Below, piece by piece: positions 6,135-25,987 of a stretch of DNA of 31,276 nucleotides (the stretch's first letter is position 1; each line of letters starts with the position of its first letter). The notes under the pieces are model-generated. The model was not told where the DNA came from, ran no database searches, and saw nothing but the letters and a program-made list of their open reading frames with translations. Source of the DNA: a virus (lineage: Duplodnaviria > Caudoviricetes). Location: the IMG/VR virus record IMGVR_UViG_3300046832_001180, positions 1-31,276 of that record; one strand, 5' to 3'. The position numbers and the translations under genes were made by a program.

Positions 6135-6446
6135 TCAAATAGGGTTTGAGGTTAAAACCGACAGAACAATCGCCAGAATCCAAGCGGCGCAGGACCAAAA
6201 TTTAGGCGTCGTCTTGTCCTTCGCACTGGCGCAGTTATGCCGCGCGCGGAAATTCTTACGACGCTCAGGATTCGACTTTTTGATCGTCATGTTGGCGTCT
6301 CCAAAGCGAACCTTGATGACGTTGCCGTTGTCATTCTTGACATACACCGCGCTCTTCTTTCGCTCGCCAGGAGTGTAGAACGGCTTGTTGAGCGTCACCT
6401 TCTTGCCCTGATAGGTATTACCCTTTTTGGAGAGGGAGGTTTTCAT
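6135..6446 (-). CDS. Basic phage protein of the RFG...RRxxFRARHxC...WSC type (DUF5754-like)
   Basis: KKSAVYVK...VRFGD...ERRKNFRARHNC...KFWSC motif. Start coupled to the upstream stop (TAATG). Confidence 0.7.
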   Translation of the reverse strand: MKTSLSKKGNTYQGKKVTLNKPFYTPGERKKSAVYVKNDNGNVIKVRFGDANMTIKKSNPERRKNFRARHNCASAKDKTTPKFWSCAAWILAIVLSVLTSNPI

Positions 6447-9373
6447 TAGAATCTAGGCCGAGCAGGAACGCCAAGCGTATCGTCAAAAACACCACGCTTA
6501 TCTTCAGGCAAGCTGGCCTTAGCCTCCTCTGACTTTTTGTTCAGATTGTCCCATTCCCTGTTGAACTGAAGCAAAGACATGTTTGAAGCCTTTGCAAGAG
6601 CCTCGGCCTGAGGAAGTGTCAGGTTTGGTTTAAGACCAGCAAAGGTTTGAGGTAGTCGAACCGCGCTGCTCAAAAAGTTTTGAACGGTAGGGCTTCCGAC
6701 CAAAGCATCAACAACCCACCTAGCGCGAGTGGCTCGCATGACAGAATTGGCCAACTGATCAGGCTGAAGTTGGCCACCTTGAGCAGTCAGATTTCTAGCG
6801 CGATTCCACTGCATGTAATCATTGATCATGTTGAAGTCGTTAGGCTCCAGAACATCACGAATGATCTGCATGCGATTCGGATCTTGAACGATGTCATCAA
6901 GATTCTGAATTCCACGCCTGAGATTGGCAGGCCCAGTTTCAGAAACGTGATTCAGAACCGCAACCGCTGCATTGGCTCTTACTGCATCACGAGTCGCCGG
7001 ATTGAGTTGGTTCAACGCATTCTGAACAACCTGCGGATTTTCAGATCGGAACACGAAATCCCTGACAAACTGAGACGGATCGACATCTGGATTGAGCTGG
7101 TTCCGCTGAACTCGACGAGTCGTGGCGTTGAAAAACTCTTCAGCCCTGTCTCTGGCCTGCCTCGCAAGATTGGCAACCGTGTTGCGAAGAGTTGGCGATG
7201 CGATGTTTCCGATGTTGTCGGTGATTTCCGTCAGCGCCTGCGGATTGATTCCAGTGGCAACCGGAATTGACATGCCAACATTTTGAACGCGAACGGCATC
7301 GTTCAGAATTGATTGAAGCCTGTTTGCGTTAGCTTCGCTGCCAGTAACAATGTTTCTGACCGCTTGCGGAAGCTCTCTGAAGTTGTTCGAAAAAGAGGAA
7401 AGGCTTTCTGTTGGAACTCCACCGATGTCAACCGTCCCGGTTCCACGCAGAGAATCTATGAATCCCCTGCGAATTTGATCGAACTGTATTCTCCCTTGAG
7501 GATTTGTTGTCAGAAGGTTTCGAACGGATTCAAAACCAGCAGGAGAACTTGCTAGGTCAGAAAAGAACTGTTCGGTGTTTTGATATCCACCCTCTGCGGC
7601 AGGAATGGAAGCCCTTCTGATGATCTGGTTGTCTTGAAGAAGATTGAACCGATTTTCAGCAGCCCGTTGAGCTGCAACAACTTCGTTTTCAATTCCAAGC
7701 CTACGGGCAGAGGCAAGCTCTTCTTGCTTCAGTGCAGCGCGAAGTCTTTGAAGCTGGTTCTGAGCAACACCAGGAGCGAATTCTTGAAATTGATGTATGA
7801 CTCCATCGATTGATTGGCGCAACCCAACTATCTGCTCAAATGTCTGTGGGCTTCTAGCGACATCAAGCAAAGCTCTCGCCCTCGAAGATGCCTCATTAAA
7901 AAACTGAGAAGGAATTCGTTCGACAGTAGTTGTCGGAGTTCCACCAATAATTGGAGATGGAGTAACAGTAACCCGCTCTTCAGTTGCCAAAGTGCCAAGT
8001 ACATCATCAATCGTGTCTCGGAGGTTTTGACTTGGTGTAACTGGAGCTTCCGCTTGTCCACCCAACCTAGTTGTTCGAGCTGTTCTTGCCGTATTGTAAG
8101 CATCGTCAACAATTCCACTCAGACGCTGATCTTCACCACGGATGAAACCGACAGAATTGTTGGCAGCATCTTGAAGTGATGCAGCTCTAGGAGAGCGAGG
8201 GAGAATGCTTCCAATGACGCCTTCAACTTCCCCAACAGCCTGACCGCCTGCACCGGCAGCACTTCCACGCAAAGCCTGTCGAGATGCAGCTTCAGCACCA
8301 AGAACCTCTTGTTGAGCCACCTGAGCCGTCGCACGTTCTTGTTGAGCTGGAATTCCAAGCTGTCCACGAATTCGCTCAGGAAGAGCTTGTTGGGCAGCAA
8401 GACCGCTTGAGCCAGGACCAAAAGTTCCCGGCACGTTTCTTCCCGTTTGTTGCGTAGCGGTCAGCGGCGCGGTTCCAGCTCCGAGCGTTTCTTCAAGACG
8501 TTGGCCAGCTTGACGGCCTTGCTGCGCGATTTGTTCTTCTGCGGTCAACTGTCGAGCAGGTCGAGCAAGCGCACCTGTTGCACCTCCGGTTGTAAAACCA
8601 AAAATAGCTGGAAGAGAAATCTCGCTACCAATTTCTTCAAGCGTTGGAAGCCTTCCTTGATCGATGTATTTTTGAAGAGTTTCTCCAAATGCAGCGGTTG
8701 CAGCATTGACTCCAGCTTGAGCTGAACCTTGAGCAATTCCAGCACCCAGAGGCCCGACAGTTCCTTGAAACGGCCTAAGAACAGGAGTTGCAGAAACAAC
8801 ACCACCCTTAACAAGCTGACCTTCAGAAAAATCTTTTCTTTGACCAGCTAGATATTCTCCGGTCTGGCCAAGAACTTCTCCGGCAAAACCTGCACCACCC
8901 ATAGCCATTGCTGCGGGAATAACCCCGGCCCCTCCGGTCATTGCTCCGACAGCAGCAACGGGTGCAATTCTGGCAGTCGTAATAGCCGCCTGAATGGCCG
9001 CTTCTTTGGTTCTTTTCTTTTCCTCTTCCGAAGTTGCAACGCTAGGCGGAGCGGTCATCACGCCGGGACGCTGAAAATATGGCGTTACATATTGGCCAGC
9101 CTCCCCTTGGATAGCTTTCTGTTCGCCAATCTTTCCAGCATCGTCAACAGCCGCTTGAAGCTGTTGCGGAGAGCCAGCTTGAAACATGCTTGCGTAAGGG
9201 TCAGCACCAGTCCGCTGCGGAGCCTGATACTGAGCAGACATGGCGGAAGTTTCAGGAGCAGATTGGCCAACCGACTTGAAGACATCTTCAAGTTCTTGCT
9301 CTGTTGGAGGACTATCTCCAGTCAGCCGAATGGTTCTTCCGCTGGTCGGATCTTTGATTCGATAGGTAGGCAT
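6446..9373 (-). CDS. Large internal virion / DNA ejection protein (975 aa)
   Basis: Third of three A/G/Q-rich helical ORFs downstream of the tail genes, as with T7 gp14-16 or P22 gp7/20/16. Gly/Ala hydrophobic segments at aa ~135-270. Confidence 0.7.
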   Translation of the reverse strand: MPTYRIKDPTSGRTIRLTGDSPPTEQELEDVFKSVGQSAPETSAMSAQYQAPQRTGADPYASMFQAGSPQQLQAAVDDAGKIGEQKAIQGEAGQYVTPYFQRPGVMTAPPSVATSEEEKKRTKEAAIQAAITTARIAPVAAVGAMTGGAGVIPAAMAMGGAGFAGEVLGQTGEYLAGQRKDFSEGQLVKGGVVSATPVLRPFQGTVGPLGAGIAQGSAQAGVNAATAAFGETLQKYIDQGRLPTLEEIGSEISLPAIFGFTTGGATGALARPARQLTAEEQIAQQGRQAGQRLEETLGAGTAPLTATQQTGRNVPGTFGPGSSGLAAQQALPERIRGQLGIPAQQERATAQVAQQEVLGAEAASRQALRGSAAGAGGQAVGEVEGVIGSILPRSPRAASLQDAANNSVGFIRGEDQRLSGIVDDAYNTARTARTTRLGGQAEAPVTPSQNLRDTIDDVLGTLATEERVTVTPSPIIGGTPTTTVERIPSQFFNEASSRARALLDVARSPQTFEQIVGLRQSIDGVIHQFQEFAPGVAQNQLQRLRAALKQEELASARRLGIENEVVAAQRAAENRFNLLQDNQIIRRASIPAAEGGYQNTEQFFSDLASSPAGFESVRNLLTTNPQGRIQFDQIRRGFIDSLRGTGTVDIGGVPTESLSSFSNNFRELPQAVRNIVTGSEANANRLQSILNDAVRVQNVGMSIPVATGINPQALTEITDNIGNIASPTLRNTVANLARQARDRAEEFFNATTRRVQRNQLNPDVDPSQFVRDFVFRSENPQVVQNALNQLNPATRDAVRANAAVAVLNHVSETGPANLRRGIQNLDDIVQDPNRMQIIRDVLEPNDFNMINDYMQWNRARNLTAQGGQLQPDQLANSVMRATRARWVVDALVGSPTVQNFLSSAVRLPQTFAGLKPNLTLPQAEALAKASNMSLLQFNREWDNLNKKSEEAKASLPEDKRGVFDDTLGVPARPRF

Positions 9374-10833
9374 TATTGTCCTTCAACAAGAATTTCAAAA
9401 CGACCGACACGATTCGAAGCCGGAGGAGTTGTAGGTTGAATTGTTCCACCTTGCGAACGGTTTGCCCGAATGTTTTTGAAAATATCCTGAGGAGAAATCG
9501 GCTGTTCTTGCGAAACCGCAGCCGGAGCCGCTTGCTGCTGCTGGCCGAATCCAAACTTTTGCCTAGCACCCTCAAGATACCGTTTCTTAACGTCGTATGG
9601 AATGTCAGGTGAAAACCTGTACTCCCAAATACTGTTTTCGGCACCAGAACGAAGATTGTTTTTGAAAGACGAGATAACCTGAATGTAATCGTTACGCGCA
9701 GGAGTGCTTACAACTTTTTGAAGGTTTCTTTCTTCAGATGGAGTAAGTGTTGCTCCATACTTATTGTTTTGATAGTCAGTAACAACAAGCTGAATCTTGT
9801 TGTGTATGTCTCTTGCGTCTTCCTGTTCTTTAGTTGTAAGACCCTTAAATCTTCCTTTAAGATCAAACACTGGCGCATCAATAGGTCCAACATATTCAGA
9901 GAAAGACCCTTTTCCGTATTTGCTTTCAAAAGCATTGAGCTTATTGAAAACATCATCCAACTCTACTACAGCTTTGTTTGAAGCCGTCAAAGCCTTTGAA
10001 ACGTCAGCAGGAACTTTTCCTTGGTTTGGTCCTCCAAGGAACACCTTTGCGTTGATTTCGTCTTCGTCGGTCTGAACTATCTTCTGTTTTTTAAGACCTT
10101 CCAAAACTTGATTTGCACGTTGGGCGACAACGCCACCTTCAGTCCTAGCAGTCGGCAAAAGCTGCTCATACTCCTGCTGGGTAATATCTCCAGAATCAAA
10201 AAGTGTCTTAAGACCTTCTTTCGTATTTCTTTGGCCAGCCATGCCTATGGCCGTCAGCTTTTTCAATCTAGCCTGCTCTTGCCTAAGAGGAGCGGCAGCA
10301 TCAAAGATTGCTTTTCTAAACTCAGGGTTTATTTGCTGAGTTTTTGGATCAAGTCCACCATTGTACTGAAGGGGAATATCGCTTTTCCCGTTTTCATTAA
10401 GGAAATCAATTTCCTTATTTAGAACTGCCATTTGTGAGGCATTTGCCTTTTCAACGAGGAACCGATTCTGAGCCATCGGCAACGATTGGAGAACTGGACC
10501 ACTCATGTCTCCAAGCATCTTCAAGCCAGTCGCGCTTTGAAGATCGGACGGAGGAGCGGGAAACGGCAAAGTCGGATCGCCTTTGGCGTTCCATTGAACA
10601 TATGCTGATTGCCACTGCTGAATCTTCGGAAGATCGGCGGAAAACTTTGCGCGCTCAGAAATTCCGCTGGCGAGGTCGTTTTCCCGAATCTTGTTCTGAA
10701 GCTCCATTCCTTGACGCTGAAGCAAAGACTCAGCCGTCTGCATCTGCAACTGCTCCATCATCCGCTGCTGCGTCTGCGCGCGGTCGAACAGCGATGCGCC
10801 TAGCTGAAACGCTTGAAGAGATTGGTCGGCCAT
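9373..10833 (-). CDS. Internal virion / ejection protein (486 aa)
   Basis: Q-rich coiled-coil N-terminus, helical body with a YGATLTPSE segment, middle position in the triplet, TAATG coupling. Confidence 0.65.
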   Translation of the reverse strand: MADQSLQAFQLGASLFDRAQTQQRMMEQLQMQTAESLLQRQGMELQNKIRENDLASGISERAKFSADLPKIQQWQSAYVQWNAKGDPTLPFPAPPSDLQSATGLKMLGDMSGPVLQSLPMAQNRFLVEKANASQMAVLNKEIDFLNENGKSDIPLQYNGGLDPKTQQINPEFRKAIFDAAAPLRQEQARLKKLTAIGMAGQRNTKEGLKTLFDSGDITQQEYEQLLPTARTEGGVVAQRANQVLEGLKKQKIVQTDEDEINAKVFLGGPNQGKVPADVSKALTASNKAVVELDDVFNKLNAFESKYGKGSFSEYVGPIDAPVFDLKGRFKGLTTKEQEDARDIHNKIQLVVTDYQNNKYGATLTPSEERNLQKVVSTPARNDYIQVISSFKNNLRSGAENSIWEYRFSPDIPYDVKKRYLEGARQKFGFGQQQQAAPAAVSQEQPISPQDIFKNIRANRSQGGTIQPTTPPASNRVGRFEILVEGQ

Positions 10834-10838
10834 AAGAT

Positions 10839-11711
10839 TTAGAGTCCGAAATTGGACGAGCTGTATTCAGGGAATAGGCTGGTAGATTGCGGCCCTATTT
10901 CAGAGGTATTTGTTCTCGGGAAAGAATAAAGCTCAGGATCGTTCTGGGGATTGTAAGACGATGGCGGTCGATATCCTCCTGGCAGTTGAGACATCAACGC
11001 ACTCGAAATTCCATATTGCGACAGCGCACCGCCAACCTGACCACCAAATCCAGTGACAGCACTCTGCAACGCTTGCTGCATCGGAGAAGCGGAAGCAGCG
11101 GCCTGAGCGGCTTGCAAATCGCGTCCATACTGAAGCTGTTGCTGTTGCTGCATAAATCCAATCCGCTGAGACGGAGTGATAAACATGCTACTCACCGAGA
11201 ATGGCTGAACCATTCCAACAGACCGCTGCTGCTGAATGAAACTCTGAGCTTGAGCCAGACCCTGATTCTGAAGCTGCATCCCAGTCAACCCCAAGTCGCG
11301 AGCGGTTAGCGCACGACCGAATCCAGATGCGCCGCCAAATCCTCCAGACAAAGCTCGTCCAGCGGCAGAGCGTTGAACCTGAGCAGAAACCTCTGGTGAG
11401 ATTTCGCCTCGCAAGGCCGACCCAATGTTCTTGCCAGCCTGTTGAATCAACTGGTCATAGCCAGGAATCGCGCGACGAAGCTGCGCCTCAAGCTGAGACT
11501 GCTCAGCGGCGGTCGTCTTGGTGGCCAACTCGGTTGCAGGCTCAAGCGATGCGATATTCTGCTGAATCGCCTTTTGCTGTTCTCCAGCAAAATCAATCGG
11601 CTTCAATTCTGGAACCTTTGGCTTCTTTCCGCCAAAAAGCCCACCAAGCAGGCTTCCCGCTGCGGAAATTCCTGCTCCACCCAAAATTGAACCTACAAGT
11701 CCTATTGCCAT
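10839..11711 (-). CDS. Internal virion / pilot-like ejection protein (290 aa)
   Basis: Gly-rich hydrophobic N-terminus (GLVGSILGGAGISAAGSLLGGLFGGKK) and Q/A/G/S-rich body. SD-like AAGGA upstream. Confidence 0.7.
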   Translation of the reverse strand: MAIGLVGSILGGAGISAAGSLLGGLFGGKKPKVPELKPIDFAGEQQKAIQQNIASLEPATELATKTTAAEQSQLEAQLRRAIPGYDQLIQQAGKNIGSALRGEISPEVSAQVQRSAAGRALSGGFGGASGFGRALTARDLGLTGMQLQNQGLAQAQSFIQQQRSVGMVQPFSVSSMFITPSQRIGFMQQQQQLQYGRDLQAAQAAASASPMQQALQSAVTGFGGQVGGALSQYGISSALMSQLPGGYRPPSSYNPQNDPELYSFPRTNTSEIGPQSTSLFPEYSSSNFGL

Positions 11712-11727
11712 AAATTATCCTTTTGGT

Positions 11728-12699
11728 TCAGAACCATTGCGAGAATCCACCGCCATTCAATCCTACACCGACCATGCGTATCGTTGCGACAGCGTCGCCC
11801 AGATACTGCATCGTCTGCTCCTGCACAGCTTGAACCGCTTTGGCTTCGTAGGCCACTGCTTCCTGAATCAAATCGTTTTCTTCCTTTCGAATGGCCATGA
11901 CCATCAGCTTGATGGCATCAGCGCACGGAGGAATAAGGTAGTCATTGACGCTCGTCGCGTTGATATGACGCATCTTCGCCATGACCGTCACCGGCTTATC
12001 CTCGTCGTTGTTACAACGATCTGTCAGGTAACTGCGGCGATACTGCGGCAAAGTTTCATCAGGGTCGTAAACTGCCAGATCCGTTTCCAGGGCAGTCGTC
12101 GCATCGTACTCGTACAAGCGACTGACCGTGTTCGTCGCCTCTCGGATGACGCCGGTCAATTCGGTGAATTTCTTCGTAGATTGAACGTACGGCAAAGCGA
12201 GCGTCAGCTTTTCTCCGTCAATCCACGCGCCACCGGATTGCGTTCGAATCCACTGACCGTTCTGATCAACACCTTGCAGCGTGATGGTTTTGCCGACATC
12301 CGAAGCGTCGCCAGGGTAGACTCGAAGATAGCTGTTAGTACCACCAGACATGTCGCGGTAAGAAACCACAGTACCACGATCAATAAGCTGCTTCCCAACG
12401 CACACTTGATTGCCATTGAGAAGTCCATATCCGGTTTCCTGAAACTCGAACCATTGATTGCGAACCGTTCCGACTCCGCAGCAGTCAGCCACAGCCTCGA
12501 TGGTTTCGATCTGTCGCGGCCAAGTGATGCAGCCACCTACGGTGTGAATCGTGAAGCGTCCGTACGCTCCAGCCCACAACCCCTTGTGTAGAAGCCTTCG
12601 ACACGCCTGATTGATGTAATCATAAACGCGCTGATCATCGACACATGTGCCGATGACCCGAGCGATTGTGGAGCGAATGTCCTGAACGATTAGCTTCAT
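11728..12699 (-). CDS. Probable head-tail adaptor (tail tubular protein A-like)
   Basis: Helical N-terminus (DQRVYDYINQACRRL), beta-rich middle, helical C-terminus (DAIKLMVMA...EAVAYEAKA); lies between the nozzle and ejection genes. Confidence 0.55.
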   Translation of the reverse strand: MKLIVQDIRSTIARVIGTCVDDQRVYDYINQACRRLLHKGLWAGAYGRFTIHTVGGCITWPRQIETIEAVADCCGVGTVRNQWFEFQETGYGLLNGNQVCVGKQLIDRGTVVSYRDMSGGTNSYLRVYPGDASDVGKTITLQGVDQNGQWIRTQSGGAWIDGEKLTLALPYVQSTKKFTELTGVIREATNTVSRLYEYDATTALETDLAVYDPDETLPQYRRSYLTDRCNNDEDKPVTVMAKMRHINATSVNDYLIPPCADAIKLMVMAIRKEENDLIQEAVAYEAKAVQAVQEQTMQYLGDAVATIRMVGVGLNGGGFSQWF

Positions 12700-13397
12700 T
12701 TGGTGTAGTAGACTCGGCCAGTTCGCTTGATAAAGTAAACACCGTAAAACGGCGGCAGGTTGTTATGGGCCGCATCACCCCCAGTGGATGAGGTGGCTAC
12801 ATTCGCTGTAGTTCCATACTGAACACCGTTGGCTCCGCCGTTATTTGCATCCGCAGTTACAAGCGGGAAGAAGTTGTGAGCGTGGGCAGGCATCTCAGGA
12901 ACTGTCAGCGTGTGCTTGTCCTCGCCGACAACAGAAGTTGTGGTGGTAGTTCCTTGAACAGAAACAGCGCCGCTTGCGGCAAAAGCACCAGCACCGACCG
13001 GGAATCGAGCGTCAAACGCGTTGTCAAGTTGCCACATCGAACCGGCGTAAGGATTGCCAGAGTAGACAGTTCCATCTCCGCCATCGTACGACAGCACGTC
13101 AGTGCTTGTTCCAACAAAAATACGACGCTCAGAACTTCCAGCCGCAACCGGATTTTGGCGCGCCCAATATCCGCCGTTGAACACCCACCAATTCCCATTC
13201 TCATCCAACCACGGATAAACCTGATTGTTCAGCGCAGGAGTCGTAGAACCAAAGTTGAAAAACGAGTTTCCAATCGCGCTGTTGAACGTCGCCTGAGTGC
13301 CTCCGATGATATCGTTGGCCAACTGTTGGTAGTTGGACGGACAATAATTGTACGGAAGGCTTGGAGCCGTGAGCGTGATGAGCGTTAGATTTGCCAT
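12696..13397 (-). CDS. Short tail fiber / tail-collar type protein (T4 gp10/gp12 C-terminus-like)
   Basis: RFPVGAG...GEDKHTLTVPEMPAHAH...TGGDAAHNNLPPFYGVYFIKR, including the HxH metal-binding motif. Confidence 0.8.
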   Translation of the reverse strand: MANLTLITLTAPSLPYNYCPSNYQQLANDIIGGTQATFNSAIGNSFFNFGSTTPALNNQVYPWLDENGNWWVFNGGYWARQNPVAAGSSERRIFVGTSTDVLSYDGGDGTVYSGNPYAGSMWQLDNAFDARFPVGAGAFAASGAVSVQGTTTTTSVVGEDKHTLTVPEMPAHAHNFFPLVTADANNGGANGVQYGTTANVATSSTGGDAAHNNLPPFYGVYFIKRTGRVYYTK

Positions 13398-13398
13398 A

Positions 13399-15246
13399 CT
13401 ATTCCGATGAGTAGAGAAGTGGATTTATGTCGCAACCTTCAAGAATCTTGCACCCCTGGAACGTCCTGCACTCGCCAACGGCAGATTCCTGAACGTCGTA
13501 AGCGTGAACTCGAATGCTCTTGATGCGGCAGTAGCCGGAAATCGAGATGTTAAGCTGAACCTCGTAAAGATTCCTGGTTGGAGTGCTGATCGTGGAATTA
13601 CACGGGATATCCGTAGGAGTCGGCAACCGCATCTTCGGCCTGTACTGAGGCTGAAAGTTGCTTATCGGACAAAGGTTATCACACTGCGTCGTAATCGCGC
13701 ACTCACTCCATTCCGCCCATTCAAGCCAGCTAGGGTACTGGTCAGGACGATACTCCACGTTGAATCCGACGTTGCCATCTAGCGAGTCGATGAAAATGTC
13801 GCCCGAATCGAGCTTCTTCAGTCCGAACGGAAGCTCGAAATTGTAGGCGCGAGTCTGAACCAACCATTGAATCTCCTTCTTTGGATCGGATAGATTCGAA
13901 TCGAACTTGCTGGTCTTGCTGACCTCCCAAATCTGGATTGTGTTGTCCGATCCGCGAGCGATTGCGAAACAAGCGTCTCCGTAAGCGTTCTCGGTCTTGA
14001 GAATCTGCAACACATCCAATCCGGTCCAGATTCCAGCCCAAGCAGGAGGAAATTTTTTCCTCAGCGAGGTAATCAGATCGAAATCAAGAACCATCAACGC
14101 CTTGTGGATAACTCCGTCAGCCCTGTAACGAGGCTGTCCAGTCATCAGCAGCCGGTTGTCAAACACAACCGCAGAACTGGCCCACAGCAAATTCGTCTGA
14201 TCGTTCTCTGCGATATTTAGGATTTCGTTGCTGATGGGTGTATTCCCCCAATCGTTGAACGAACGACGAGCGATGATGAACGAGCGAACTCCATCGACAG
14301 CTCGGTAGAAAACGTCTCCGTTAACCGTGATGGCAGACCTAGAGCCAAGCGCGCCACTGGTCAGCAAGCTAATAGCCTGAATCGGATAATTCAGGTTCTT
14401 CCAAGTATCACGATCTACTGGAGCTTGGATGCTGAAGACGTATCGCGGAGTGAAGATAAGAAGCGGTCCTTGCCCAAGCGACGTATCTGGATTGCCGGGG
14501 ACGGCCATTGCCGTGATGCCTCCTGAATCCGACGGAACCGCGAAGTCTCCGCCCTCATTAAGGAAGGTATTCTCGGTTTCCTTGAGAACACTGGCTCGCG
14601 TTCCATCCCCATAAACGATGTCAGTCGCTCGAAACGAAAACCCGTCAGGAAGCGCGTACCAGATGCGTCCATTGACGTAGGACATAATCTTCCCGGTCTT
14701 TATTTCGTCGTCGGTTGCGCGGCGCAGATTCGTTCCGTTGAAAATCAACGGCTTGCTGAATCCATCTTGAATGACGACAAAGTTCTCCGCTTGAACCATC
14801 CATCCATCAAGCAGGTTGGAAGGATTCTCAAGATTCGGAGAAACCGTCAAATTCTGGGCGTTATTTTGAAGGCAGTCGTAAAGCCACACTTTACCACTGA
14901 TCAGCATCAGAATGAACGTCTGACCGTTGTCTCCAATGTACGGAAGCGCGCACTGGAATGTGCCTGTCAGACTTTGAGAGCCATAACAATTCTCCGACCA
15001 TCCATCAGCCGTCACGTTGGTTTGATCCGCCGTAACTTCAGCGTTGTCCGCTGTAATCGTCGTGCAGAGATTGTAATCCTTCTGAACGAAACCGGGGCGA
15101 GGAGAAATGAAACTCTGCCGGAAGCTGGCGTTCACCGCAAACGCCACCTGATTCTTGTCCACCTCAGACGGCATGACACCGGCATCAATGCCACCTTCAA
15201 AGGTGACAGATCCGTCCGTGTACCTCCGTGGTGCGCGTTCGCTCAT
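13399..15246 (-). CDS. Probable tail nozzle (tail tubular protein B / P22 gp10-like)
   Basis: N-terminal FEGGI...AVNASF...SPRPG, beta-propeller-like composition, C-terminal VQTRAYNF...KK and YCRIKSI segments; 615 aa in a tail context. Confidence 0.65.
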   Translation of the reverse strand: MSERAPRRYTDGSVTFEGGIDAGVMPSEVDKNQVAFAVNASFRQSFISPRPGFVQKDYNLCTTITADNAEVTADQTNVTADGWSENCYGSQSLTGTFQCALPYIGDNGQTFILMLISGKVWLYDCLQNNAQNLTVSPNLENPSNLLDGWMVQAENFVVIQDGFSKPLIFNGTNLRRATDDEIKTGKIMSYVNGRIWYALPDGFSFRATDIVYGDGTRASVLKETENTFLNEGGDFAVPSDSGGITAMAVPGNPDTSLGQGPLLIFTPRYVFSIQAPVDRDTWKNLNYPIQAISLLTSGALGSRSAITVNGDVFYRAVDGVRSFIIARRSFNDWGNTPISNEILNIAENDQTNLLWASSAVVFDNRLLMTGQPRYRADGVIHKALMVLDFDLITSLRKKFPPAWAGIWTGLDVLQILKTENAYGDACFAIARGSDNTIQIWEVSKTSKFDSNLSDPKKEIQWLVQTRAYNFELPFGLKKLDSGDIFIDSLDGNVGFNVEYRPDQYPSWLEWAEWSECAITTQCDNLCPISNFQPQYRPKMRLPTPTDIPCNSTISTPTRNLYEVQLNISISGYCRIKSIRVHAYDVQESAVGECRTFQGCKILEGCDINPLLYSSE

Positions 15247-15249
15247 GGT

Positions 15250-16473
15250 TTAAGCCTGAATCCGCTGGATTGAGAATGAAGCTCCCTCTCGAATGTAATA
15301 TGTATTTAGAGAACTAGTCGTAACTAAAACCTCATAGTAATCACCAATCGATGCCTGATCTATGTACTGAATAAAAAATGGTCCAACTAAACCCGTCGAG
15401 TTTGTTGACTGAATATTTGCAGGTCCAATATCGGTCGTTCCATTTTTTCTAATCTTAAAAGAAACCGTAGATGATGTTCCCGTATCTGCACTTAACATTA
15501 AGGCAACATCTATTCGGTAATAACTTGCAAGAGCTGCCGTAAACCGACCTGTAGCCGCAGTAAATCGTGATGCGGTATCAATTCCAGTCCAAGATCCAGA
15601 CGGAAATTCTGTCAAACTAAACGGATTCTTAGTTAAACTCGGGCCGATTTGCGGCGCACCAGCACCAACAGTTCCGCTTACCCTCCGCGTAAAAGTTTCA
15701 TAAACGAACGCCGCCGCAGCTCCCGTGGCAGCGATTGAAATAGTTCCAGCACCCGGCGTAATCGTGATGTTCGATCCTGCGGTCAGACTTGCCAGCGTGT
15801 ATCCCGTTCCATTGCCAATGAGCAGTTGGCCATTGGTTGGAGTGGAGGACAGATTTGTTCCACCCTTCGCAATCGGAAGAACCCCACTGATGTCCGCTAC
15901 AGGAACAGAGGCAACAGTCGAAACAGCACCAAATCCAACAGATCCTTGAGTCTTGAGGTAGCCAGCAGATAGCGAATCGAGAGCAGTCTCGTTCGTCAGC
16001 GTGGCGTCTGAAGTGCGGCAAATGTACGACGCGCCAACCGGAGCGCCGCCCGACGCACCAGGAGCGCCAGTCGCCCCAATCGCACCAGCCAGAGTGATAA
16101 GGGAATTAGCCGGAATCAGGGTGGTTGGAACAGCGTTGGCGATTCCAAGGACACCCGCAGCAGGGTTTTGAAGCGTCAGTTGCAGTCCATCAACCGACAG
16201 CACCTGCATGTATCCAAGACCCTGAATCGATACGAAGAACTGGCCAGCAACCGATTCTGGCAGAAATTGGGTATTATCTACGAAAACAAGGACGCTCGAC
16301 CCAAGAGCCGGAACAAAAAACGAGGCTGTCGTGTAGGTGAACGAATCGATTCCGTTCGTGCCATTCGTACCGTTGGCTCCCGCAGCCCCTTGAGGGCCGG
16401 GGATATTCACGACTACCGGCTCGGAGTCGCAAGGCTGGCAGCAGCCGGATGAAGAAACAAGTTGCGACGGCAT
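15250..16473 (-). CDS. Fiber/spike protein with short collagen-like repeats and a C1q/TNF-like C-terminal domain (407 aa)
   Basis: ATG at 16473 after AAGGA. GPQGAAGANGTNGTNG and GAIGATGAPGASG repeats, GVLPIAKGGT fiber motif, C-terminal GRFTA...YYRI...GDYYEV...FSI. Confidence 0.75.
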   Translation of the reverse strand: MPSQLVSSSGCCQPCDSEPVVVNIPGPQGAAGANGTNGTNGIDSFTYTTASFFVPALGSSVLVFVDNTQFLPESVAGQFFVSIQGLGYMQVLSVDGLQLTLQNPAAGVLGIANAVPTTLIPANSLITLAGAIGATGAPGASGGAPVGASYICRTSDATLTNETALDSLSAGYLKTQGSVGFGAVSTVASVPVADISGVLPIAKGGTNLSSTPTNGQLLIGNGTGYTLASLTAGSNITITPGAGTISIAATGAAAAFVYETFTRRVSGTVGAGAPQIGPSLTKNPFSLTEFPSGSWTGIDTASRFTAATGRFTAALASYYRIDVALMLSADTGTSSTVSFKIRKNGTTDIGPANIQSTNSTGLVGPFFIQYIDQASIGDYYEVLVTTSSLNTYYIREGASFSIQRIQA

Positions 16474-16527
16474 AATTTTCCTTTCGCAGAACCTCAAGTC
16501 CAGCGAGAACTATTGCAAGGCCAAACT
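16474..16527. promoter_or_regulatory. Divergent intergenic region (54 bp) between the tail and packaging operons
   Basis: Head-to-head starts at 16473 (-) and 16528 (+). TTGCAA on the - strand is a possible -35; no clear -10. Confidence 0.55.
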
Positions 16528-18839: not shown

Positions 18840-21073
18840 CCCAACTGCCGCTTGAAACCATCAACGAAAACGGCAAAGCGCCTGAAACGCGCATAGCCGA
18901 TGCGGCATCAGCTCGCGAAATTTTCCAGAAGCTGATCATGGCCGATCAGTTGCGGAACGTGACGCGCGCCAAGTTGCGCGGTCTTGTTGATGGTAACCCT
19001 CCGTACAATCCTGCGGAACTGCGTCGTAACAACCAAGCGTTCCGAACCAATGTAAACTTCCGCGAGTCGGAAGCGTTCCTCACGTTGGCCATGTCTGCCT
19101 TCTACGATGTGTTCGCCGAGGTTCCGACCTACGCCAACATTCGCACCGCTTACGGCAACGACATGGATAAGCGGGAGGAATGGTCGAAGATCATTACCGA
19201 GGAATTCGACCGTCTCCAGAAGATGGACAAAGACTTCGACTACCTCATGCAGCTCTCGCAGCGTGAGATGGTCCTTATTGGCGATGGCCCGTTGATTTTC
19301 GAGGACAGCACCGATTGGCGGTGTAAGGCCATCATGGCAACGGATCTTCTCGTTCCAGATGGAACCAAGTCGAACGTCAGCGACTGGAAAGTAGCCGCTG
19401 TCCGAACCCGCATGGGTGTCGATGATCTTTTTGAGAAGATTCAAGATGAAGAGGCAGCTCGCGCCGCCGGTTGGAACGTGGATTACGTTCGCCAGCGTAT
19501 TCGCGCCGCAATGCCCGAGCCGTATCGTTCTGGTGTTCAGTACGACTGGGAGTTCTTCCAGCGCCAGCTTCGCTCGAACGATATCACTTTCTCGGCTCGC
19601 TCCGAGGTGGTCTTGATGTGCCACATCTTCTACAAGGAGTTCGATGGTCAGATCAGCCATGTCATCATCGATGAGCGTGACAGCGAGGACTTCATGTACA
19701 AGAAGCTGCGTCGCTTCGGCCGGTGGGAGCAGGTTATCCATCCGATGTACTACGACCGTGGCGATGGCGAGCATCATGGTGTAAAAGGCTTGGGCATCAA
19801 GATGCTCCAGGCGATGGAACTGAAGAATCGTCTGCGTTGCTCGATGGTTGATAGCGCATTCGCTCGCACCCAGATTCTCTTCCGACCTCTCAACCCGAAC
19901 GCTCTAAACAAAACGAGCGTCGTTCAGCAAGGACCGTATGCTATTCTCCCGCCCGACTACGAAGTCATTCAGCAGAACATTGCTGGCGTTCTGGACGCTC
20001 CTATGGCGGTCAACGCTGACCTTGAGAATGTTCTTCAAGGCAACCTCTCTCAGTATCGCCAATCGCTCAACAAGCCGTCGGGCAATCCTCGTACTGCCAC
20101 CGAAGTCCAAGCCATCGTGGCACAGCAGTCAGCAATCGGTAAGACGCAGTTGAGCCGGTATTACAACCAGTTGGATTCTTTCTTCGAGGAGCGGTACAAT
20201 CGCGCCTCAAACCCCAATCTGAACCCGATTACAAAGTCGGACAAAGACGCCATCGAATTCCAACGTCGATGCAAGGAGCGTGGCGTTCCGGTTCAGGCGA
20301 TGATTGACATCGATTACGTTGAGGCGACTCGTACGGTCGGCCAAGGTTCTCAATTCGCGAAACAGCAGCTTCTCGGGACTTTGCTCGGTCTTGCCGGTTC
20401 TCTTCCCGAAGGCGGAAAAGTCAACCTGCTCAAGGACTACATCGCCGCTCAGGTTGGCCAACAAATGGTTGATCGTTATTTGCCGACTCAGATGCAGTCT
20501 GCTCGCGTTCAGGATCAGGCTGCTCTTGCTGTTCTGGAGCATTCATCGTTGCGCCAGGGCAACATGCCAATCGTCACCGACACGCAGAGCCATATCATTC
20601 ACATCGACACACATCTGGCGGCTGCAAACGAGGCTGCTGCATCGCTTCAACAGGGTGGAAATCCGCAGGAGATTGTCCTCTTCCTCCAAGGCGTCGGTCA
20701 GCACGTTCAGCAGCACTTGCAGCGCCTGTCCACCGATCCTTCACGCCGTCCGCAGGTCGAGGCTTACACGCAGCAGTTGCAGATGCTTAGCCAGACCATC
20801 GAGCAGCTTGGCCAGTTGATTCAGGAACAGGCTCAGGCAATGGCGCAGCAACAGCAGGCGATGGCGATTCAGCAGGGTGTCGATCCGAAGACCGCTGTTC
20901 TCAACGCTGAAGTTCAGGCAAAAATCGCTCGCCAGAATGCCGAGGTTATGGCCAACATCCAGCGTCAGAACACGAAGGCGATGGCAGACTTGTCGCGCCG
21001 GAATGCGAAGACCACCGCTGATATTCAGCGAGCGAATGCAACTGCCGAGTCCAACTTGGCGCGTCAGGGATAA
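18824..21073 (+). CDS. Portal protein (P22/podovirus-like) with Q-rich C-terminal barrel
   Basis: 749 aa downstream of terL; RTATEV motif; long Q/A-rich coiled-coil C-terminus. Confidence 0.82.
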   Translation: MYGNLAQLPLETINENGKAPETRIADAASAREIFQKLIMADQLRNVTRAKLRGLVDGNPPYNPAELRRNNQAFRTNVNFRESEAFLTLAMSAFYDVFAEVPTYANIRTAYGNDMDKREEWSKIITEEFDRLQKMDKDFDYLMQLSQREMVLIGDGPLIFEDSTDWRCKAIMATDLLVPDGTKSNVSDWKVAAVRTRMGVDDLFEKIQDEEAARAAGWNVDYVRQRIRAAMPEPYRSGVQYDWEFFQRQLRSNDITFSARSEVVLMCHIFYKEFDGQISHVIIDERDSEDFMYKKLRRFGRWEQVIHPMYYDRGDGEHHGVKGLGIKMLQAMELKNRLRCSMVDSAFARTQILFRPLNPNALNKTSVVQQGPYAILPPDYEVIQQNIAGVLDAPMAVNADLENVLQGNLSQYRQSLNKPSGNPRTATEVQAIVAQQSAIGKTQLSRYYNQLDSFFEERYNRASNPNLNPITKSDKDAIEFQRRCKERGVPVQAMIDIDYVEATRTVGQGSQFAKQQLLGTLLGLAGSLPEGGKVNLLKDYIAAQVGQQMVDRYLPTQMQSARVQDQAALAVLEHSSLRQGNMPIVTDTQSHIIHIDTHLAAANEAAASLQQGGNPQEIVLFLQGVGQHVQQHLQRLSTDPSRRPQVEAYTQQLQMLSQTIEQLGQLIQEQAQAMAQQQQAMAIQQGVDPKTAVLNAEVQAKIARQNAEVMANIQRQNTKAMADLSRRNAKTTADIQRANATAESNLARQG

Positions 21074-21077
21074 AAGT

Positions 21078-21701
21078 ATGACCAGCGAGCAAGAGGAGAG
21101 CCTCAAACAATTCGTCAACGAAAACTTCCCCAAGATGGGCGGATGGTGCGATATCGAAAAGGCCATCCAAATCGGACAGATTGTTCTCGATACCAAGCCG
21201 CAGCGAATCGCCGAAGTCGGCGTCTTTGAAGGCAAATCAACACTCGCACTTGCTCAGTGCTGCAAGATGAATGGCAGCGGAACGGTTTACGCCATCGACT
21301 CTTGGAAGAAAGAGGACTGCATTGACGATGAATCGGCCAACAACCAAGAGTGGTGGTCGAAGTTAGACCTCGAGTACCATTACGAGCAGTTCGTCTCGCA
21401 TTCGGTTCGCACAAATCTTGTTCGCCATATCCAATTCTGCCGCATGTCGTCATGGGACGCGTCGCGATTTCTGCCTGACATGGACATGGTTCACATCGAT
21501 GCCAACCACGCTGAATGGCCGTCCACAAGCGATGTGGTCAACTGGCTTCCGAAGCTCAAGGTTGGTGGATACCTCGTCATGGACGATGTGAACTGGGAAT
21601 CGACGCAGACTGCGTTGAAGTTCGTTCTCAAACGCTGCCAATTCATTTCTCGGTTCGAACTTAAGGAAAGCGTGTTCGCAATCTACCGCAAGGAAAAGTA
21701 A
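21078..21701 (+). CDS. Class I SAM-dependent methyltransferase (Methyltransf_24-like)
   Basis: EVGVFEGKS, YAIDSW, DMVHIDANH, LKVGGYLVMDD. ATG at 21078, just after the portal stop. Confidence 0.9.
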   Translation: MTSEQEESLKQFVNENFPKMGGWCDIEKAIQIGQIVLDTKPQRIAEVGVFEGKSTLALAQCCKMNGSGTVYAIDSWKKEDCIDDESANNQEWWSKLDLEYHYEQFVSHSVRTNLVRHIQFCRMSSWDASRFLPDMDMVHIDANHAEWPSTSDVVNWLPKLKVGGYLVMDDVNWESTQTALKFVLKRCQFISRFELKESVFAIYRKEK

Positions 21702-21704
21702 TTC

Positions 21705-22307
21705 ATGGAATCCATTGTCATCACTATGCGGGGTTCAAACCGCATCCCGCGCATACAAAAACATTTTAAGGAAAACGGGGTCGATAATTACCGCTTTTTC
21801 TATGGCATTGACGGTCCAAAATCTGGACTTGTTGCAAGCGTTTCGTACGAAGTTGATAAGCCTGAAAGCAAGTTGGTCATACATCCAAAACAGCTCGGAT
21901 GTTTTTTATCCCATTGGATGCTTTGGAAATCGTTAGACTTTGACCCAAGCACCCCAGATGCAGTTCAGATTTTTGAAGATGATGTTCTTCTTAGGCCACG
22001 CTGGAAGGAAACCGTTGAACGCGCGCTGACGAAACTACCAGAAGATTGGGACATTTTGTTCCCAGGATCTTGCTGCGCTGGCGACAAACGAAAAAAAGAA
22101 TACGATTCAAATCTTTTTGAGGGATTTCCGCTCTGCACTCACCACTACATTGTCAGGAAAAAGGCTCTAAAAACACTGATCGAATCCAATGAGGAGGTCT
22201 GCCAGCCGATAGACATTCAGTCTTACCACAGAAGTGGGCCACTGCTTCAGTCGTTTATTATTTTTCCGAGAGTTTCAGATCAAGTTGACACTGTGTTTCC
22301 AGACTAA
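21705..22307 (+). CDS. Glycosyltransferase family 25-like
   Basis: FFYGIDG, LGCFLSHWMLW, IFEDD, LPEDWDIL, THHYIV and PID motifs of GT25 (LgtB/Lex2B-like). Confidence 0.87.
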   Translation: MESIVITMRGSNRIPRIQKHFKENGVDNYRFFYGIDGPKSGLVASVSYEVDKPESKLVIHPKQLGCFLSHWMLWKSLDFDPSTPDAVQIFEDDVLLRPRWKETVERALTKLPEDWDILFPGSCCAGDKRKKEYDSNLFEGFPLCTHHYIVRKKALKTLIESNEEVCQPIDIQSYHRSGPLLQSFIIFPRVSDQVDTVFPD

Positions 22308-22309
22308 AA

Positions 22310-25161: not shown

Positions 25162-25305
25162 TTATCTACGGTAAGGACCGCTTCCGATCGGAACCGGCTT
25201 TGCAACCGGCTTAATCGGAGGCTTCGGCGGAGGAGACTGCTTGTAAGGTCCGCTGCCGCCAACCTTAACAGACGGCGAACCTTTGTACGGTGCGTTATTG
25301 CTCAT
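25162..25305 (-). CDS. Pro/Lys/Gly-rich 47-aa peptide (not in ORF track)
   Basis: MSNNAPYKGSPSVKVGGSGPYKQSPPPKPPIKPVAKPVPIGSGPYRR. ATGA-coupled to the upstream stop; ends 15 nt before the terminator hairpin. Confidence 0.7.
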   Translation of the reverse strand: MSNNAPYKGSPSVKVGGSGPYKQSPPPKPPIKPVAKPVPIGSGPYRR

Positions 25306-25532
25306 TCTTTTGGGAGTGCATACCAGCCTTCATGGATGGTAATACGGTTCTGACTACGCACCGATTTGCCGCTCGCGTCAACGACCCAAACCTTAGCCTT
25401 AACGTCCTCAGCAAGCCTCACCGGCTCACCGTGGGGGACGTAAATCACTCGGCTCGCGCAGCTCACGCTCATGCTCGCGCACACGATCAAGAAGACCGCG
25501 CTTAAGATCAGGTTGTTTCTTGGCGTCTTCAT
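25302..25532 (-). CDS. Lipoprotein, probable o-spanin (Rz1-like)
   Basis: Basic N-terminus, hydrophobic stretch, lipobox-like SVS-C25, then ASRVIYVP. Overlaps the upstream gene in another frame. Confidence 0.65.
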   Translation of the reverse strand: MKTPRNNLILSAVFLIVCASMSVSCASRVIYVPHGEPVRLAEDVKAKVWVVDASGKSVRSQNRITIHEGWYALPKE

Positions 25533-25605
25533 TTGTTGTGTCCTGCTTGGTCAGCGCATGAAGCCAGATGACCAGCTTCATAACGAGGTCGGCCAGGAAG
25601 TTCAT
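25426..25605 (-). CDS. Probable i-spanin (Rz-like, 59 aa; not in ORF track)
   Basis: MNFLADLVMKLVIWLHALTKQDTTNEDAKKQPDLKRGLLDRVREHERELREPSDLRPPR. Hydrophobic N-terminus plus charged helix; ATGA-coupled to the holin-like gene. Confidence 0.55.
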   Translation of the reverse strand: MNFLADLVMKLVIWLHALTKQDTTNEDAKKQPDLKRGLLDRVREHERELREPSDLRPPR

Positions 25606-25796
25606 TCCGTCTGTTTAGCGGGTGCAGCAGCGGCTGATTGCTTGTTCTTCCACATAGACCAAGCGACGCCAGAAATGCTGACAGCAGCACCGGCCAATTC
25701 AGCAACCTGATCGGCGCTGGCCAACCCTTTGGCAACGATGAATCCACCGGCAGCGGTCAGGATGTGGCGGAGAAGAGAGGAGATATTAGCGTTCAT
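25602..25796 (-). CDS. Putative holin (2 TM, 64 aa)
   Basis: MNANISSLLRHILTAAGGFIVAKG...AGAAVSISGVAWSMWKNK: two hydrophobic helices and a basic tail. ATG at 25796 is ATGA-coupled. Confidence 0.65.
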   Translation of the reverse strand: MNANISSLLRHILTAAGGFIVAKGLASADQVAELAGAAVSISGVAWSMWKNKQSAAAAPAKQTE

Positions 25797-25987
25797 TTGT
25801 CGTTTTTGAGTTTGCGATAAAGTTCGACTGCTTTCACGACGCAAGTAAGAAGCGCGGCGAGCGCGCCAAGTGCCAATGACGCAGTCTTGAGATGAGGATC
25901 GGAGAATACCGCGTTCCCCAGAATGCCGATGGCCGGACCACCGACGCCGATTGAGATGTCTCTTAAAAAGGCGTGGTGGTCCGTCAT
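25793..25987 (-). CDS. Small membrane protein (holin/antiholin-like)
   Basis: Two hydrophobic segments and a basic C-terminus (LYRKLKNDK). Confidence 0.6.
   Translation of the reverse strand: MTDHHAFLRDISIGVGGPAIGILGNAVFSDPHLKTASLALGALAALLTCVVKAVELYRKLKNDK

What the first reader, a model, noticed from the sequence alone, without database searches (positions are those of the whole stretch)
6632..8668. Lysine desert in the largest ejection protein: 1 Lys in 679 residues
Seen: residues 236-914 of the 975-aa protein contain a single Lys (K549, nt 7727-7729), splitting Lys-free runs of 313 and 365 aa. Arg is abundant there, and both protein termini contain Lys. GC bias does not explain it: the DNA is not GC-rich, AT-rich Asn/Ile/Phe codons are common, and the neighbouring 486-aa protein is Lys-rich. 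Established: AB-toxin A chains (cholera toxin, ricin) are Lys-poor to escape ubiquitination. Bacteria have Lys-targeted conjugation systems (Pup, UBact, and Bil-type ubiquitin-like anti-phage systems that modify virion proteins). Inference: this injected protein may be selected to evade a host Lys-directed conjugation, acylation or proteolysis system, a passive anti-defence strategy. Alternatively, translocation through the nozzle or envelope may favour Arg.
Basis: partly seen in the sequence, partly recalled or inferred. Interest (0 to 1): 0.85.

Follow-up and report, generated by a model that had tools for sequence, protein, structure and literature searches.

The report
Lysine-purged allele of phage injection protein
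One swappable version of a phage's likely DNA-injection protein has lost nearly all its lysines and selection keeps them out, while near-identical phages carry lysine-rich versions, which likely means that some host strains tag or cut lysines on this injected protein.

Summary
Residues 236-914 of the 975-aa ORF hold one Lys (K549) and 63 Arg (P about 4e-16). It is the last of three likely ejection genes of an uncultured podovirus.

The desert belongs to one allele. Of 39 typed close relatives, 35 carry divergent Lys-normal alleles (4.7-8.5% Lys), two of them with 99-100% identical terminase, fibre and nozzle. True orthologs hold 2.4-8.9% Lys, so Lys was purged on the stem of one clade. Codon counts show ongoing selection: Arg-to-Lys transitions 10 seen against 117 expected, versus 0.56-0.71 of expectation in controls. 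K549 is invariant (103 of 103). Eight of 91 sequences regained 8-20 Lys.

GC bias, a generic nozzle limit and tRNA-Lys starvation are rejected. The host was not identified, so the cause is untested. Best guess is a strain-variable Lys-directed host activity acting on the injected, likely cytoplasmic body (0.42). The main rival is a low-charge, Arg-only biophysical adaptation (0.28). Phage lysine deserts are in print only as proteome-level correlations in the papers I found. This scan noted similar deserts on other DNA.

The parts
6446..9373 (-). Large third ejection-type gene (ej3), 975 aa, desert allele; likely P22 gp16 / T7 gp16 analog
   Evidence: ORF; gene order as in P22; ESM lead PF26808 at 0.92; 48 BFVD matches at E<=0.001, nearly all podovirus-type uncharacterised or injection proteins
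6632..8668 (-). Lysine desert, residues 236-914 (clade-wide core 255-914 = nt 6632-8611); predicted helical soluble body, likely the cytoplasmic part after injection
   Evidence: 1 Lys and 63 Arg; clade mean 0.5% Lys; AGR-to-AAR 10 seen against 116.8 expected; AlphaFold2 models
7715..7762 (-). Conserved helix patch, residues 538-553, holding the single retained K549 (nt 7727-7729)
   Evidence: Q538, Q540, L541, L544, R545, L548, K549, E551, E552 and L553 each 103 of 103; K549 also in 2 of 3 near outgroups
8612..9373 (-). Lys-bearing N-terminal part (1-254) with Gly/Ala-rich hydrophobic helices; its start is shared with other alleles
   Evidence: Clade mean Lys 3.8-4.5% and Kyte-Doolittle segment 124-169; N-terminal-only hits P0041-P0071
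8564..8620 (-). Hydrophobic segment 252-270 at the start of the desert; candidate membrane crossing
   Evidence: KD19 maximum 1.23; equivalent segment in 4 of 5 clade and near-outgroup sequences or just upstream; inferred
6659..6715 (-). Weak hydrophobic segment 887-905 just before the end of the desert; marginal candidate for a second crossing
   Evidence: KD19 maximum 1.02; not above threshold in P0024, P0031 or P0036
6449..6631 (-). Lys-bearing C-terminal tail (915-975)
   Evidence: Clade mean 8.9% Lys; K915 in 103 of 103 and K959 in 102 of 103; Arg-to-Lys not suppressed, 2 seen against 1.7 expected
9373..10833 (-). Second ejection-type gene (ej2), 486 aa, Lys-normal; likely periplasmic tunnel analog
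   Evidence: 7.2% Lys; highly variable and reassorts independently of ej3; role inferred from position only
10839..11711 (-). First ejection-type gene (ej1), 290 aa, Lys-free from 95 to 290 (nt 10842-11429); trait shared by the whole phage group
   Evidence: 0 Lys in 54 of 75 homologous segments with mean 8.8 Arg
11728..12699 (-). 323-aa conserved gene, likely head-tail adaptor; used as the anchor for sampling relatives
   Evidence: 112 homologs; label inferred from position, no family hit
12696..16497 (-). Likely tail needle (233 aa), nozzle (615 aa) and tail fibre (415 aa)
   Evidence: PHROG tail hits for the 233- and 415-aa ORFs; nozzle label inferred from size and order against P22; 99-100% identical in L049 and L056, which carry Lys-rich ej3
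25302..25844 (-). Lysis-type cluster: Pam3 gp28 holin, a 59-aa ORF and a 76-aa lipoprotein-like ORF; hint of a two-membrane host
   Evidence: PF23987 at E 5e-18; hydrophobic leader ending in Cys read from the sequence; spanin role inferred

Best explanation
This is one interchangeable allele of a podovirus's likely gp16-type DNA-ejection protein whose soluble body was stripped of lysine and is kept so by selection, likely because some host strains carry an enzyme that tags, modifies or cuts lysines on that body once it is injected. Shown: the purge is derived, limited to residues 255-914, not driven by GC, still under purifying selection, and partly reversed in a few lineages. Inferred: (1) after ejection the Lys-bearing N-terminus stays in the periplasm or membrane and the desert forms the cytoplasmic hub, as for T7 gp16; (2) this hub is present in few copies, must refold, and acts before any phage gene is expressed, so it can only be protected passively; (3) the attacker is accessory and substrate-selective (Bil/Bub-type Ubl conjugation, an acylase or a Lys-specific protease), because sister phages escape with unrelated Lys-rich alleles; (4) K549 is kept because it has a role in a conserved helix patch that Arg cannot fill.
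For: Outgroup Lys is retained at 3 of 86 positions against Arg at 85 of 137, and is replaced by R (20), N (13), A (9), Q (8) and others, so this is removal of Lys more than gain of Arg. AGR-to-AAR changes: 10 seen against 116.8 expected (0.086), versus 0.23-0.35 for R>Q, S>N, D>N and V>I in the same region, 12/21.5 in other regions and genes of the same phages, and 23/32.6 in sister alleles (P 9e-6, 3e-5, 6e-9). Lys is tolerated at 69 of 660 columns and up to 20 Lys occur in natural variants, so the fold does not forbid it. Lys gains are clumped on some branches (P = 0.01). Phages with an identical tail carry Lys-rich alleles. The desert starts right after a hydrophobic segment, and ej2 is exempt. 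T7 gp16 topology comes from PMC8954989. Ejection proteins are known defence targets and are highly mosaic (PMC10883804, PMC13128918). Bil conjugates Ubl to lysine and modifies a virion protein (PMC10557695).
Against: The host is unknown and no Lys-directed system was linked to this phage. A system that spares 35 of 39 co-circulating Lys-rich alleles must be assumed to be selective. The clade also lost acidic residues (D+E 9-10% against 11-15%) and gained N+Q (14-19% against mostly 7-11%), which fits a general low-charge adaptation. The two regain loci with DNA have low GC3 (0.28, 0.25), and G003 is AT-shifted in other genes too, so mutation pressure may explain some regain. Serine gains are also clumped (P = 0.001). 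The second hydrophobic boundary is marginal. ej1 is Lys-poor in all phages of the group whichever ej3 allele they carry. The known Bil target is a tail fibre modified during assembly, not an injected protein.
Confidence: 0.42

Rival explanations
1. Biophysical adaptation of this allele: a low-charge, Arg-only, Asn/Gln-rich body crosses the inner membrane, refolds, packs in the capsid or binds DNA better, with no host enzyme involved.
For: K+R and D+E both fall to about 9.5-10% while N+Q rises to 15-19%. Tyr is also low. ej1, a likely membrane-inserting protein, is Lys-free and Arg-bearing in the whole group. The desert is the part that would have to cross the membrane (inferred).
Against: Orthologs of the same family work with 5-9% Lys, and Lys-rich alleles work with the identical tail. 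R>Q, which loses the guanidinium, is accepted four times more readily than R>K (0.35 against 0.086), which is hard to explain by a need for Arg. Up to 20 Lys have been regained in nature.
Confidence: 0.28
2. Evasion of a housekeeping Pup- or UBact-proteasome pathway of the host genus.
For: This is the published hypothesis for Mycobacterium phages (PMC10665810). The Pirellula-labelled MAG holding a desert allele has a Pup_ligase hit at E 9e-54.
Against: Cytoplasmic proteins of this phage are Lys-normal at 5-12%, and 35 of 39 relatives have Lys-rich ej3. The ligase hit stands alone among the 7 neighbouring ORFs scanned. The UBact search found nothing, but its control was also silent. The two MAG labels conflict.
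Confidence: 0.1
3. Single-acceptor or damage-avoidance design: K549 is a required reactive lysine (cross-link or modification) and other lysines are removed to prevent mis-reaction, or lysines are removed to avoid chemical cross-links to packaged DNA.
For: K549 never changes to Arg in 103 sequences while its neighbours 542 and 543 vary between R, Q and K. Lys and Tyr, the residues usually found in DNA-protein cross-links (recalled), are both low.
Against: K549 is absent from 1 of 3 near and 12 of 12 far outgroups. K235, K915 and K959 are just as conserved. ej2 and sister alleles share the same capsid with normal Lys. No modifying gene was seen to travel with the allele.
Confidence: 0.1
4. Neutral or genome-wide cause: GC bias, drift, or shortage of tRNA-Lys caused by a host anticodon nuclease.
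For: Regain goes with lower GC3 in two loci. AGR codons make up 40% of Arg codons against 15% in other genes.
Against: Desert-allele GC3 is 0.31-0.45, lower than in Lys-richer orthologs (0.47-0.52). The codon test is normalised to synonymous G>A changes. Spearman for Lys count against GC3 is -0.25, P = 0.13, n = 38. Neighbouring late genes are Lys-rich. Sister alleles have the same AGR share, 0.24-0.56.
Confidence: 0.03

Closest known systems
Lysine deserts in Mycobacterium phage pan-proteomes (Szulc et al. 2023, PMC10665810; review PMC13696103)
   Same: Long Lys-free stretch in a phage protein, proposed as passive escape from Lys-directed tagging.
   Different: Those are proteome-level counts in GC-rich phages, which the review calls unresolved against GC bias and phylogeny. 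Here one region of one allele at 50% GC shows a purge on one branch of the tree, codon-level selection, natural revertants and Lys-rich alternatives in the same tail background. No Pup system is linked.
P22 gp16 (PF26808) and T7 gp16 ejection proteins
   Same: Last and largest of three genes after the tail genes, mostly helical, N-terminal hydrophobic helices, and highly mosaic between close phages, as reported for P22-like E-proteins (PMC10883804).
   Different: No significant sequence or profile match and no transglycosylase domain found. P22 gp16 and T7 gp16 have 5.6% and 7.2% Lys, with longest Lys-free runs of 96 and 84 aa.
BilABCD ubiquitin-like anti-phage conjugation (PMC10557695)
   Same: Bacterial E1-E2 system that attaches a Ubl to lysines and, in a Type I system, modifies one specific virion protein. 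This is the kind of selective attacker the data call for.
   Different: The known target is the central tail fibre, modified during assembly. I found no report of escape by lysine purge and no Bil locus is linked to this phage.
SieA and HXS entry-stage defences (PMC10883804, PMC13128918)
   Same: Block DNA entry; phages escape through changes in ejection proteins.
   Different: Escape is by a few point changes, not removal of one amino acid over 660 residues. Neither is described as Lys-directed in the passages read.
Lys-poor A chains of ER-trafficking AB toxins (as reviewed in PMC13696103)
   Same: A delivered protein that must refold in the target cytosol and avoids Lys acceptors.
   Different: Eukaryotic ubiquitin-proteasome context with experimental support. 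Here it is an analogy only.

Membership tests
Lysine desert protein (Szulc et al. definitions) | Continuous Lys-free region of at least 150 aa | tested here: met
   313 and 365 aa
Lysine desert protein (Szulc et al. definitions) | Continuous Lys-free region spanning at least 50% of the protein | tested here: not met
   365 of 975 = 37%, because K549 splits the desert
Lysine desert protein (Szulc et al. definitions) | Depletion not explained by GC or chance | tested here: met
gp16-type podovirus ejection protein | Last and largest of three genes following the adaptor, nozzle and needle genes | tested here: met
   Window order 615/233/323/290/486/975 aa against P22 gp4, gp10, gp26, gp14, gp7, gp20, gp16; the upstream labels are themselves partly inferred
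gp16-type podovirus ejection protein | Mainly helical with N-terminal hydrophobic segments | tested here: met
   Predicted only: AlphaFold2 mean pLDDT 66 and 77; hydropathy
P22 gp16 family PF26808 | Sequence or profile homology | tested here: inconclusive
   No Pfam or PHROG hit; hhalign probability 1.7%, E 0.03; ESM feature score 0.92 with 171 shared features
T7 gp16 family | N-terminal transglycosylase domain and homology to T7 gp16 | tested here: not met
   No SLT hit; hhalign probability 0.3%
gp16-type podovirus ejection protein | Present in virions and ejected into the host, with a cytoplasmic C-terminal hub | not testable with these tools
   Needs virion proteomics or tomography
Pup/UBact-proteasome evasion | Host encodes ligase, modifier and proteasome | tested here: inconclusive
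   Host unknown; one doubtful MAG has a lone Pup_ligase hit; UBact search uninformative
Bil/Bub target evasion | Host encodes E1, E2, Ubl and DUB, and conjugates this protein | not tested
   No host genome to search

The most novel reading that the evidence does not exclude
The desert is the footprint of an undescribed bacterial immune system that attacks lysines on the freshly injected ejectosome hub at the moment of DNA entry. The phage population answers it in two ways, by wholesale lysine purge of one allele and by swapping in unrelated alleles, and the natural lysine-regained variants mark hosts that lack the system.
Probability: 0.3. Interest if true: 0.85.

Novelty: new variant of a known kind. 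Interest (0 to 1): 0.62.

Why it matters
The 2026 review (PMC13696103) calls the adaptive reading of phage lysine deserts unresolved because GC content and shared ancestry were not controlled. This locus controls both. It offers a matched natural series: purged alleles, revertants with up to 20 Lys, Lys-normal orthologs, and unrelated Lys-rich alleles in an identical tail. If a host enzyme is the cause, amino-acid avoidance is a passive anti-defence strategy, and such deserts become a way to find new Lys-directed immune systems. If the cause is biophysical, it says something new about how ejection proteins cross membranes.

Tried and rejected
Host identification failed. The genome-contig scan gave 2 loci, in MAGs labelled Pirellula sp. 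and Actinomycetes. Both contigs read as phage throughout the parts examined, and the Actinomycetes MAG holds several related phage contigs, so mis-binning is likely. No relative was found in 300 other Planctomycetota, 250 other family members by DNA or 200 other class members. No tRNAs in 17 loci. The Atlas on the primase gave only viral or unrecorded clusters. Homologs of the lipoprotein carried no organism names in the 120 listed. A Verrucomicrobia host is a recalled impression from start-site context and was not tested.

AGR excess as a footprint of recent Lys-to-Arg change was rejected, because sister alleles show the same share. Site-wise comparison with sister alleles was not possible: hhalign probability was below 2% for the desert allele against 6 of 6 sister profiles, so direction was taken from true orthologs instead. 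No solved structure matched: Foldseek had 0 hits at E<=0.001, the sequence search best E was 0.37, and VIA best Z was 7.6 among generic helical bundles. No match for the protein or the nozzle in INPHARED. The optional 188- and 181-aa genes occur with both allele types. Solvent exposure of K549 could not be computed because no coordinates are returned. Habitat and within-population variant frequencies remain unknown. HTVC010P was fetched but left out of the baseline because no ejection gene could be assigned; epsilon15 gp16 was cut off by the fetched stretch.
Full report
OBSERVATION. The ORF at 6446-9373 (-) encodes 975 aa with 17 Lys. Residues 236-914 hold only K549 and 63 Arg, giving runs of 313 and 365 aa. 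Region GC is 0.50 and gene GC3 is 0.38. Against the 5.6% Lys of 23 other ORFs the binomial probability is 4e-16.

WHAT THE GENE IS. The window is a virus record with helicase, primase, terminase and tail genes. The minus-strand block of 415/615/233/323/290/486/975 aa parallels the P22 tail and ejection genes. The labels nozzle, adaptor, ej1 and ej2 are inferred from order and size. The 975-aa protein has no Pfam or PHROG hit. The nearest named ESM Atlas cluster is P22 gp16, PF26808, at 0.92, but direct hhalign to P22 gp16 is not significant (probability 1.7%, E 0.03). AlphaFold2 predicts a mainly helical protein with a confident core at about 370-700. It matches 48 BFVD models at E<=0.001, mostly uncharacterised phage proteins, with one named injection protein and several carrying lytic domains. 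No solved structure matches. It most likely works like a gp16-type ejection protein. Family membership is unproven.

THE DESERT BELONGS TO ONE ALLELE. I sampled 80 loci by the neighbouring 323-aa gene (95% identity or more; best 80 of 475). Of these, 39 reach the last ejection gene: 4 carry the desert allele and 35 (31 distinct proteins) carry other alleles with 4.7-8.5% Lys and longest Lys-free runs of 123 aa or less. The other 41 contigs end too early. The other alleles fall into at least five types. They often share the N-terminal start, but their bodies do not align with the desert allele (hhalign probability below 2%, 6 of 6). L049 and L056 are 99-100% identical to the window in terminase, 415-aa fibre, nozzle, needle and adaptor, yet carry 991-aa (6.4% Lys) and 1110-aa (7.3% Lys) alleles. 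One caveat is that the second, 443-aa fibre of the L049 genome is only 36% identical, so strain range may differ. Conversely, the desert allele sits behind fibres only 43-51% identical in their C-terminal half. A generic limit set by the nozzle is therefore excluded.

THE DESERT IS DERIVED. A profile search of 1.84 billion representatives found true orthologs of the body. Three near ones (39-46% identity) have 15, 32 and 41 Lys in the region matching 255-914. Twelve far ones (about 20% identity) have 4.7-8.9% Lys. In a tree built without Lys columns, the desert clade has bootstrap 96. Near-outgroup Lys positions stay Lys in 3 of 86 cases, while Arg stays Arg in 85 of 137. Lys became R (20), N (13), A (9), Q (8), S (6), E (6) and others. 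One near outgroup, at 2.4%, is already partly depleted. Two ortholog genes with DNA have higher GC (0.52, 0.56) and more Lys (4.2%, 3.8%) than the desert allele, which is the opposite of a GC effect.

IT IS MAINTAINED BY SELECTION. Among 91 distinct clade sequences, down to about 57% identity, 68 have 1-3 Lys in 255-914 and 8 have 8-20. The parsimony root has 2. In 38 distinct DNA sequences, AGR-to-AAR changes number 10 against 116.8 expected from synonymous G>A rates (0.086). Other transitions in the same region run at 0.23-0.35 for R>Q, S>N, D>N and V>I, and 0.15 for A>T. Flanking parts of the same gene, primase, adaptor and nozzle give 12/21.5, and six sister-allele sets give 23/32.6. Conditional P values are 9e-6, 3e-5 and 6e-9 (A>T not pooled). 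These are parsimony counts on trees that ignore recombination.

NATURAL REVERTANTS. Lys occurs at 69 of 660 columns, gained mostly from Arg (54) and Gln (25) of 113 gains. Gains cluster in at least three lineages (P0025/P0022; P0019/P0013/P0006; P0027/P0023/P0028), with overdispersion P = 0.01. One of 10 control residues, Ser, is also overdispersed. The two regain loci with DNA have GC3 of 0.28 and 0.25, and G003 is AT-shifted in primase and adaptor too, so mutation pressure may contribute. Over 38 loci the Lys-GC3 correlation is weak (rho -0.25, P 0.13). K549 never varies and lies in a patch of ten invariant residues (103 of 103).

BASELINE. Fourteen ejection proteins of P22, T7, epsilon15, phiKMV and BPP-1 (GC 0.50-0.66) have longest Lys-free runs of 44-140 aa. 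Of 51 related proteins of 600 aa or more outside the clade, 2 have runs of 300 aa or more, both N-terminal. Such deserts are uncommon but not unique.

MECHANISM. Lys is kept in 1-254 (3.8-4.5%) and 915-975 (8.9%) and excluded from 255-914 (0.5%). The desert starts after hydrophobic segment 252-270 and ends just after a marginal one at 887-905. For T7 gp16 a review models a periplasmic N-terminus, a membrane region, a cytoplasmic hub and a second membrane region (PMC8954989, passages). By analogy the desert is the part exposed to the cytoplasm, and Lys-rich ej2 stays in the periplasm. This step is inferred. An injected hub acts before phage genes are expressed, so only passive protection is open to it. 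Because most co-circulating alleles are Lys-rich, the attacker would have to be selective and patchy among strains, like BilABCD, which conjugates a Ubl to lysine and in one system targets a single virion protein (PMC10557695, passages). Ejection proteins are established targets and tools in defence: SieA escape maps to P22 gp16 and gp20, which are among the most variable virion genes (PMC10883804, abstract and passages). HXS escape maps to T7 gp15 and gp16 (PMC13128918, passages). ICP3 Gp15 inhibits CBASS (10.1101/2025.07.23.666291, abstract). I put this explanation at 0.42.

AGAINST IT. The host was not found, so no system is linked. The clade also has less D+E and more N+Q than the outgroups, Tyr is low, and ej1 is Lys-free over its C-terminal part in most of the group (0 Lys in 54 of 75). 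All of this keeps a biophysical cause alive (0.28), although accepting R>Q four times more readily than R>K argues against a simple need for Arg. Housekeeping pupylation is weak (0.10), since the phage's cytoplasmic proteins and most ej3 alleles are Lys-normal.

LITERATURE AND NOVELTY. Szulc et al. (PMC10665810, passages) report deserts enriched in Mycobacterium phage proteomes. The 2026 review (PMC13696103, abstract and passages) says the adaptive reading is untested against GC and phylogeny. Searches returned no paper describing a lysine purge in an ejection protein; the library lacks most subscription papers. PMC13288928 and PMC12373910 were read as passages and add only context. UBact details and tRNA-Lys nucleases are recalled; two searches gave listings only. 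No supplements were read, and those of Szulc et al. may list individual phage proteins. Earlier unchecked notes of this scan describe similar Lys-free podovirus or virion proteins on other genomes. None matched this sequence.

VERDICT. This is a real, selected, allele-specific lysine desert with an unusually clean natural control set and an unproven cause. It is a new variant of a known kind; interest 0.62.

Noticed in passing
window 10842-11429 (-), ej1 residues 95-290: A second Lys-free, Arg-bearing stretch, shared by nearly the whole phage group (0 Lys in 54 of 75 segments) and by distant relatives at about 36% identity (runs of 213-241 aa). P22 gp7 has a 140-aa run.
   Followed up: partly
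window 9373-10833 and loci L041-L119: ej2 and ej3 alleles reassort independently on near-identical backbones; for example L030 has ej2 99% identical to the window with a different ej3 type.
   Followed up: partly
L121:10963-12064 and many loci: Optional pair of genes (188 aa with a citrate-synthase C-terminal hit at E 1.7e-6, and 181 aa with no family) inserted between adaptor and ej1; absent from the window.
   Followed up: partly
window 20877-23653 (+): Variable cassette of methyltransferase, GT25 glycosyltransferase and GH130-like genes between the portal-like and scaffold-like genes; relatives swap in other glycosyl- and methyltransferases. Possibly decorates the virion.
   Followed up: no
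L153:2170-6162 (+): 1330-aa ORF before the nozzle with 0.4% Lys, 0.8% Arg and a 1217-aa Lys-free run; probably a low-charge tail fibre.
   Followed up: no
P0279, P0325, P0318: Other ejection-type proteins with N-terminal Lys-free runs of 354, 419 and 298 aa; GC unknown; possible independent deserts.
   Followed up: no
L123:1368-3059 (+): ThyX of a near-identical phage carries an intein with an HNH domain; relatives have the intein-free gene.
   Followed up: no
G001 (L031-L034) and G009 (L126-L130): Both records appear to join two different phages, one from this group and one distant relative with higher GC and a 2456-3127 aa last ejection gene.
   Followed up: partly
L165:6891-8636 (-): Stand-alone Pup_ligase-family gene in a Pirellula-labelled MAG, with no Pup or proteasome hit among the 7 ORFs scanned.
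   Followed up: partly
window, 31 start sites: Most genes lack a clear Shine-Dalgarno motif and several start after ACC or AAACC (read by eye); may help to place the host.
   Followed up: no
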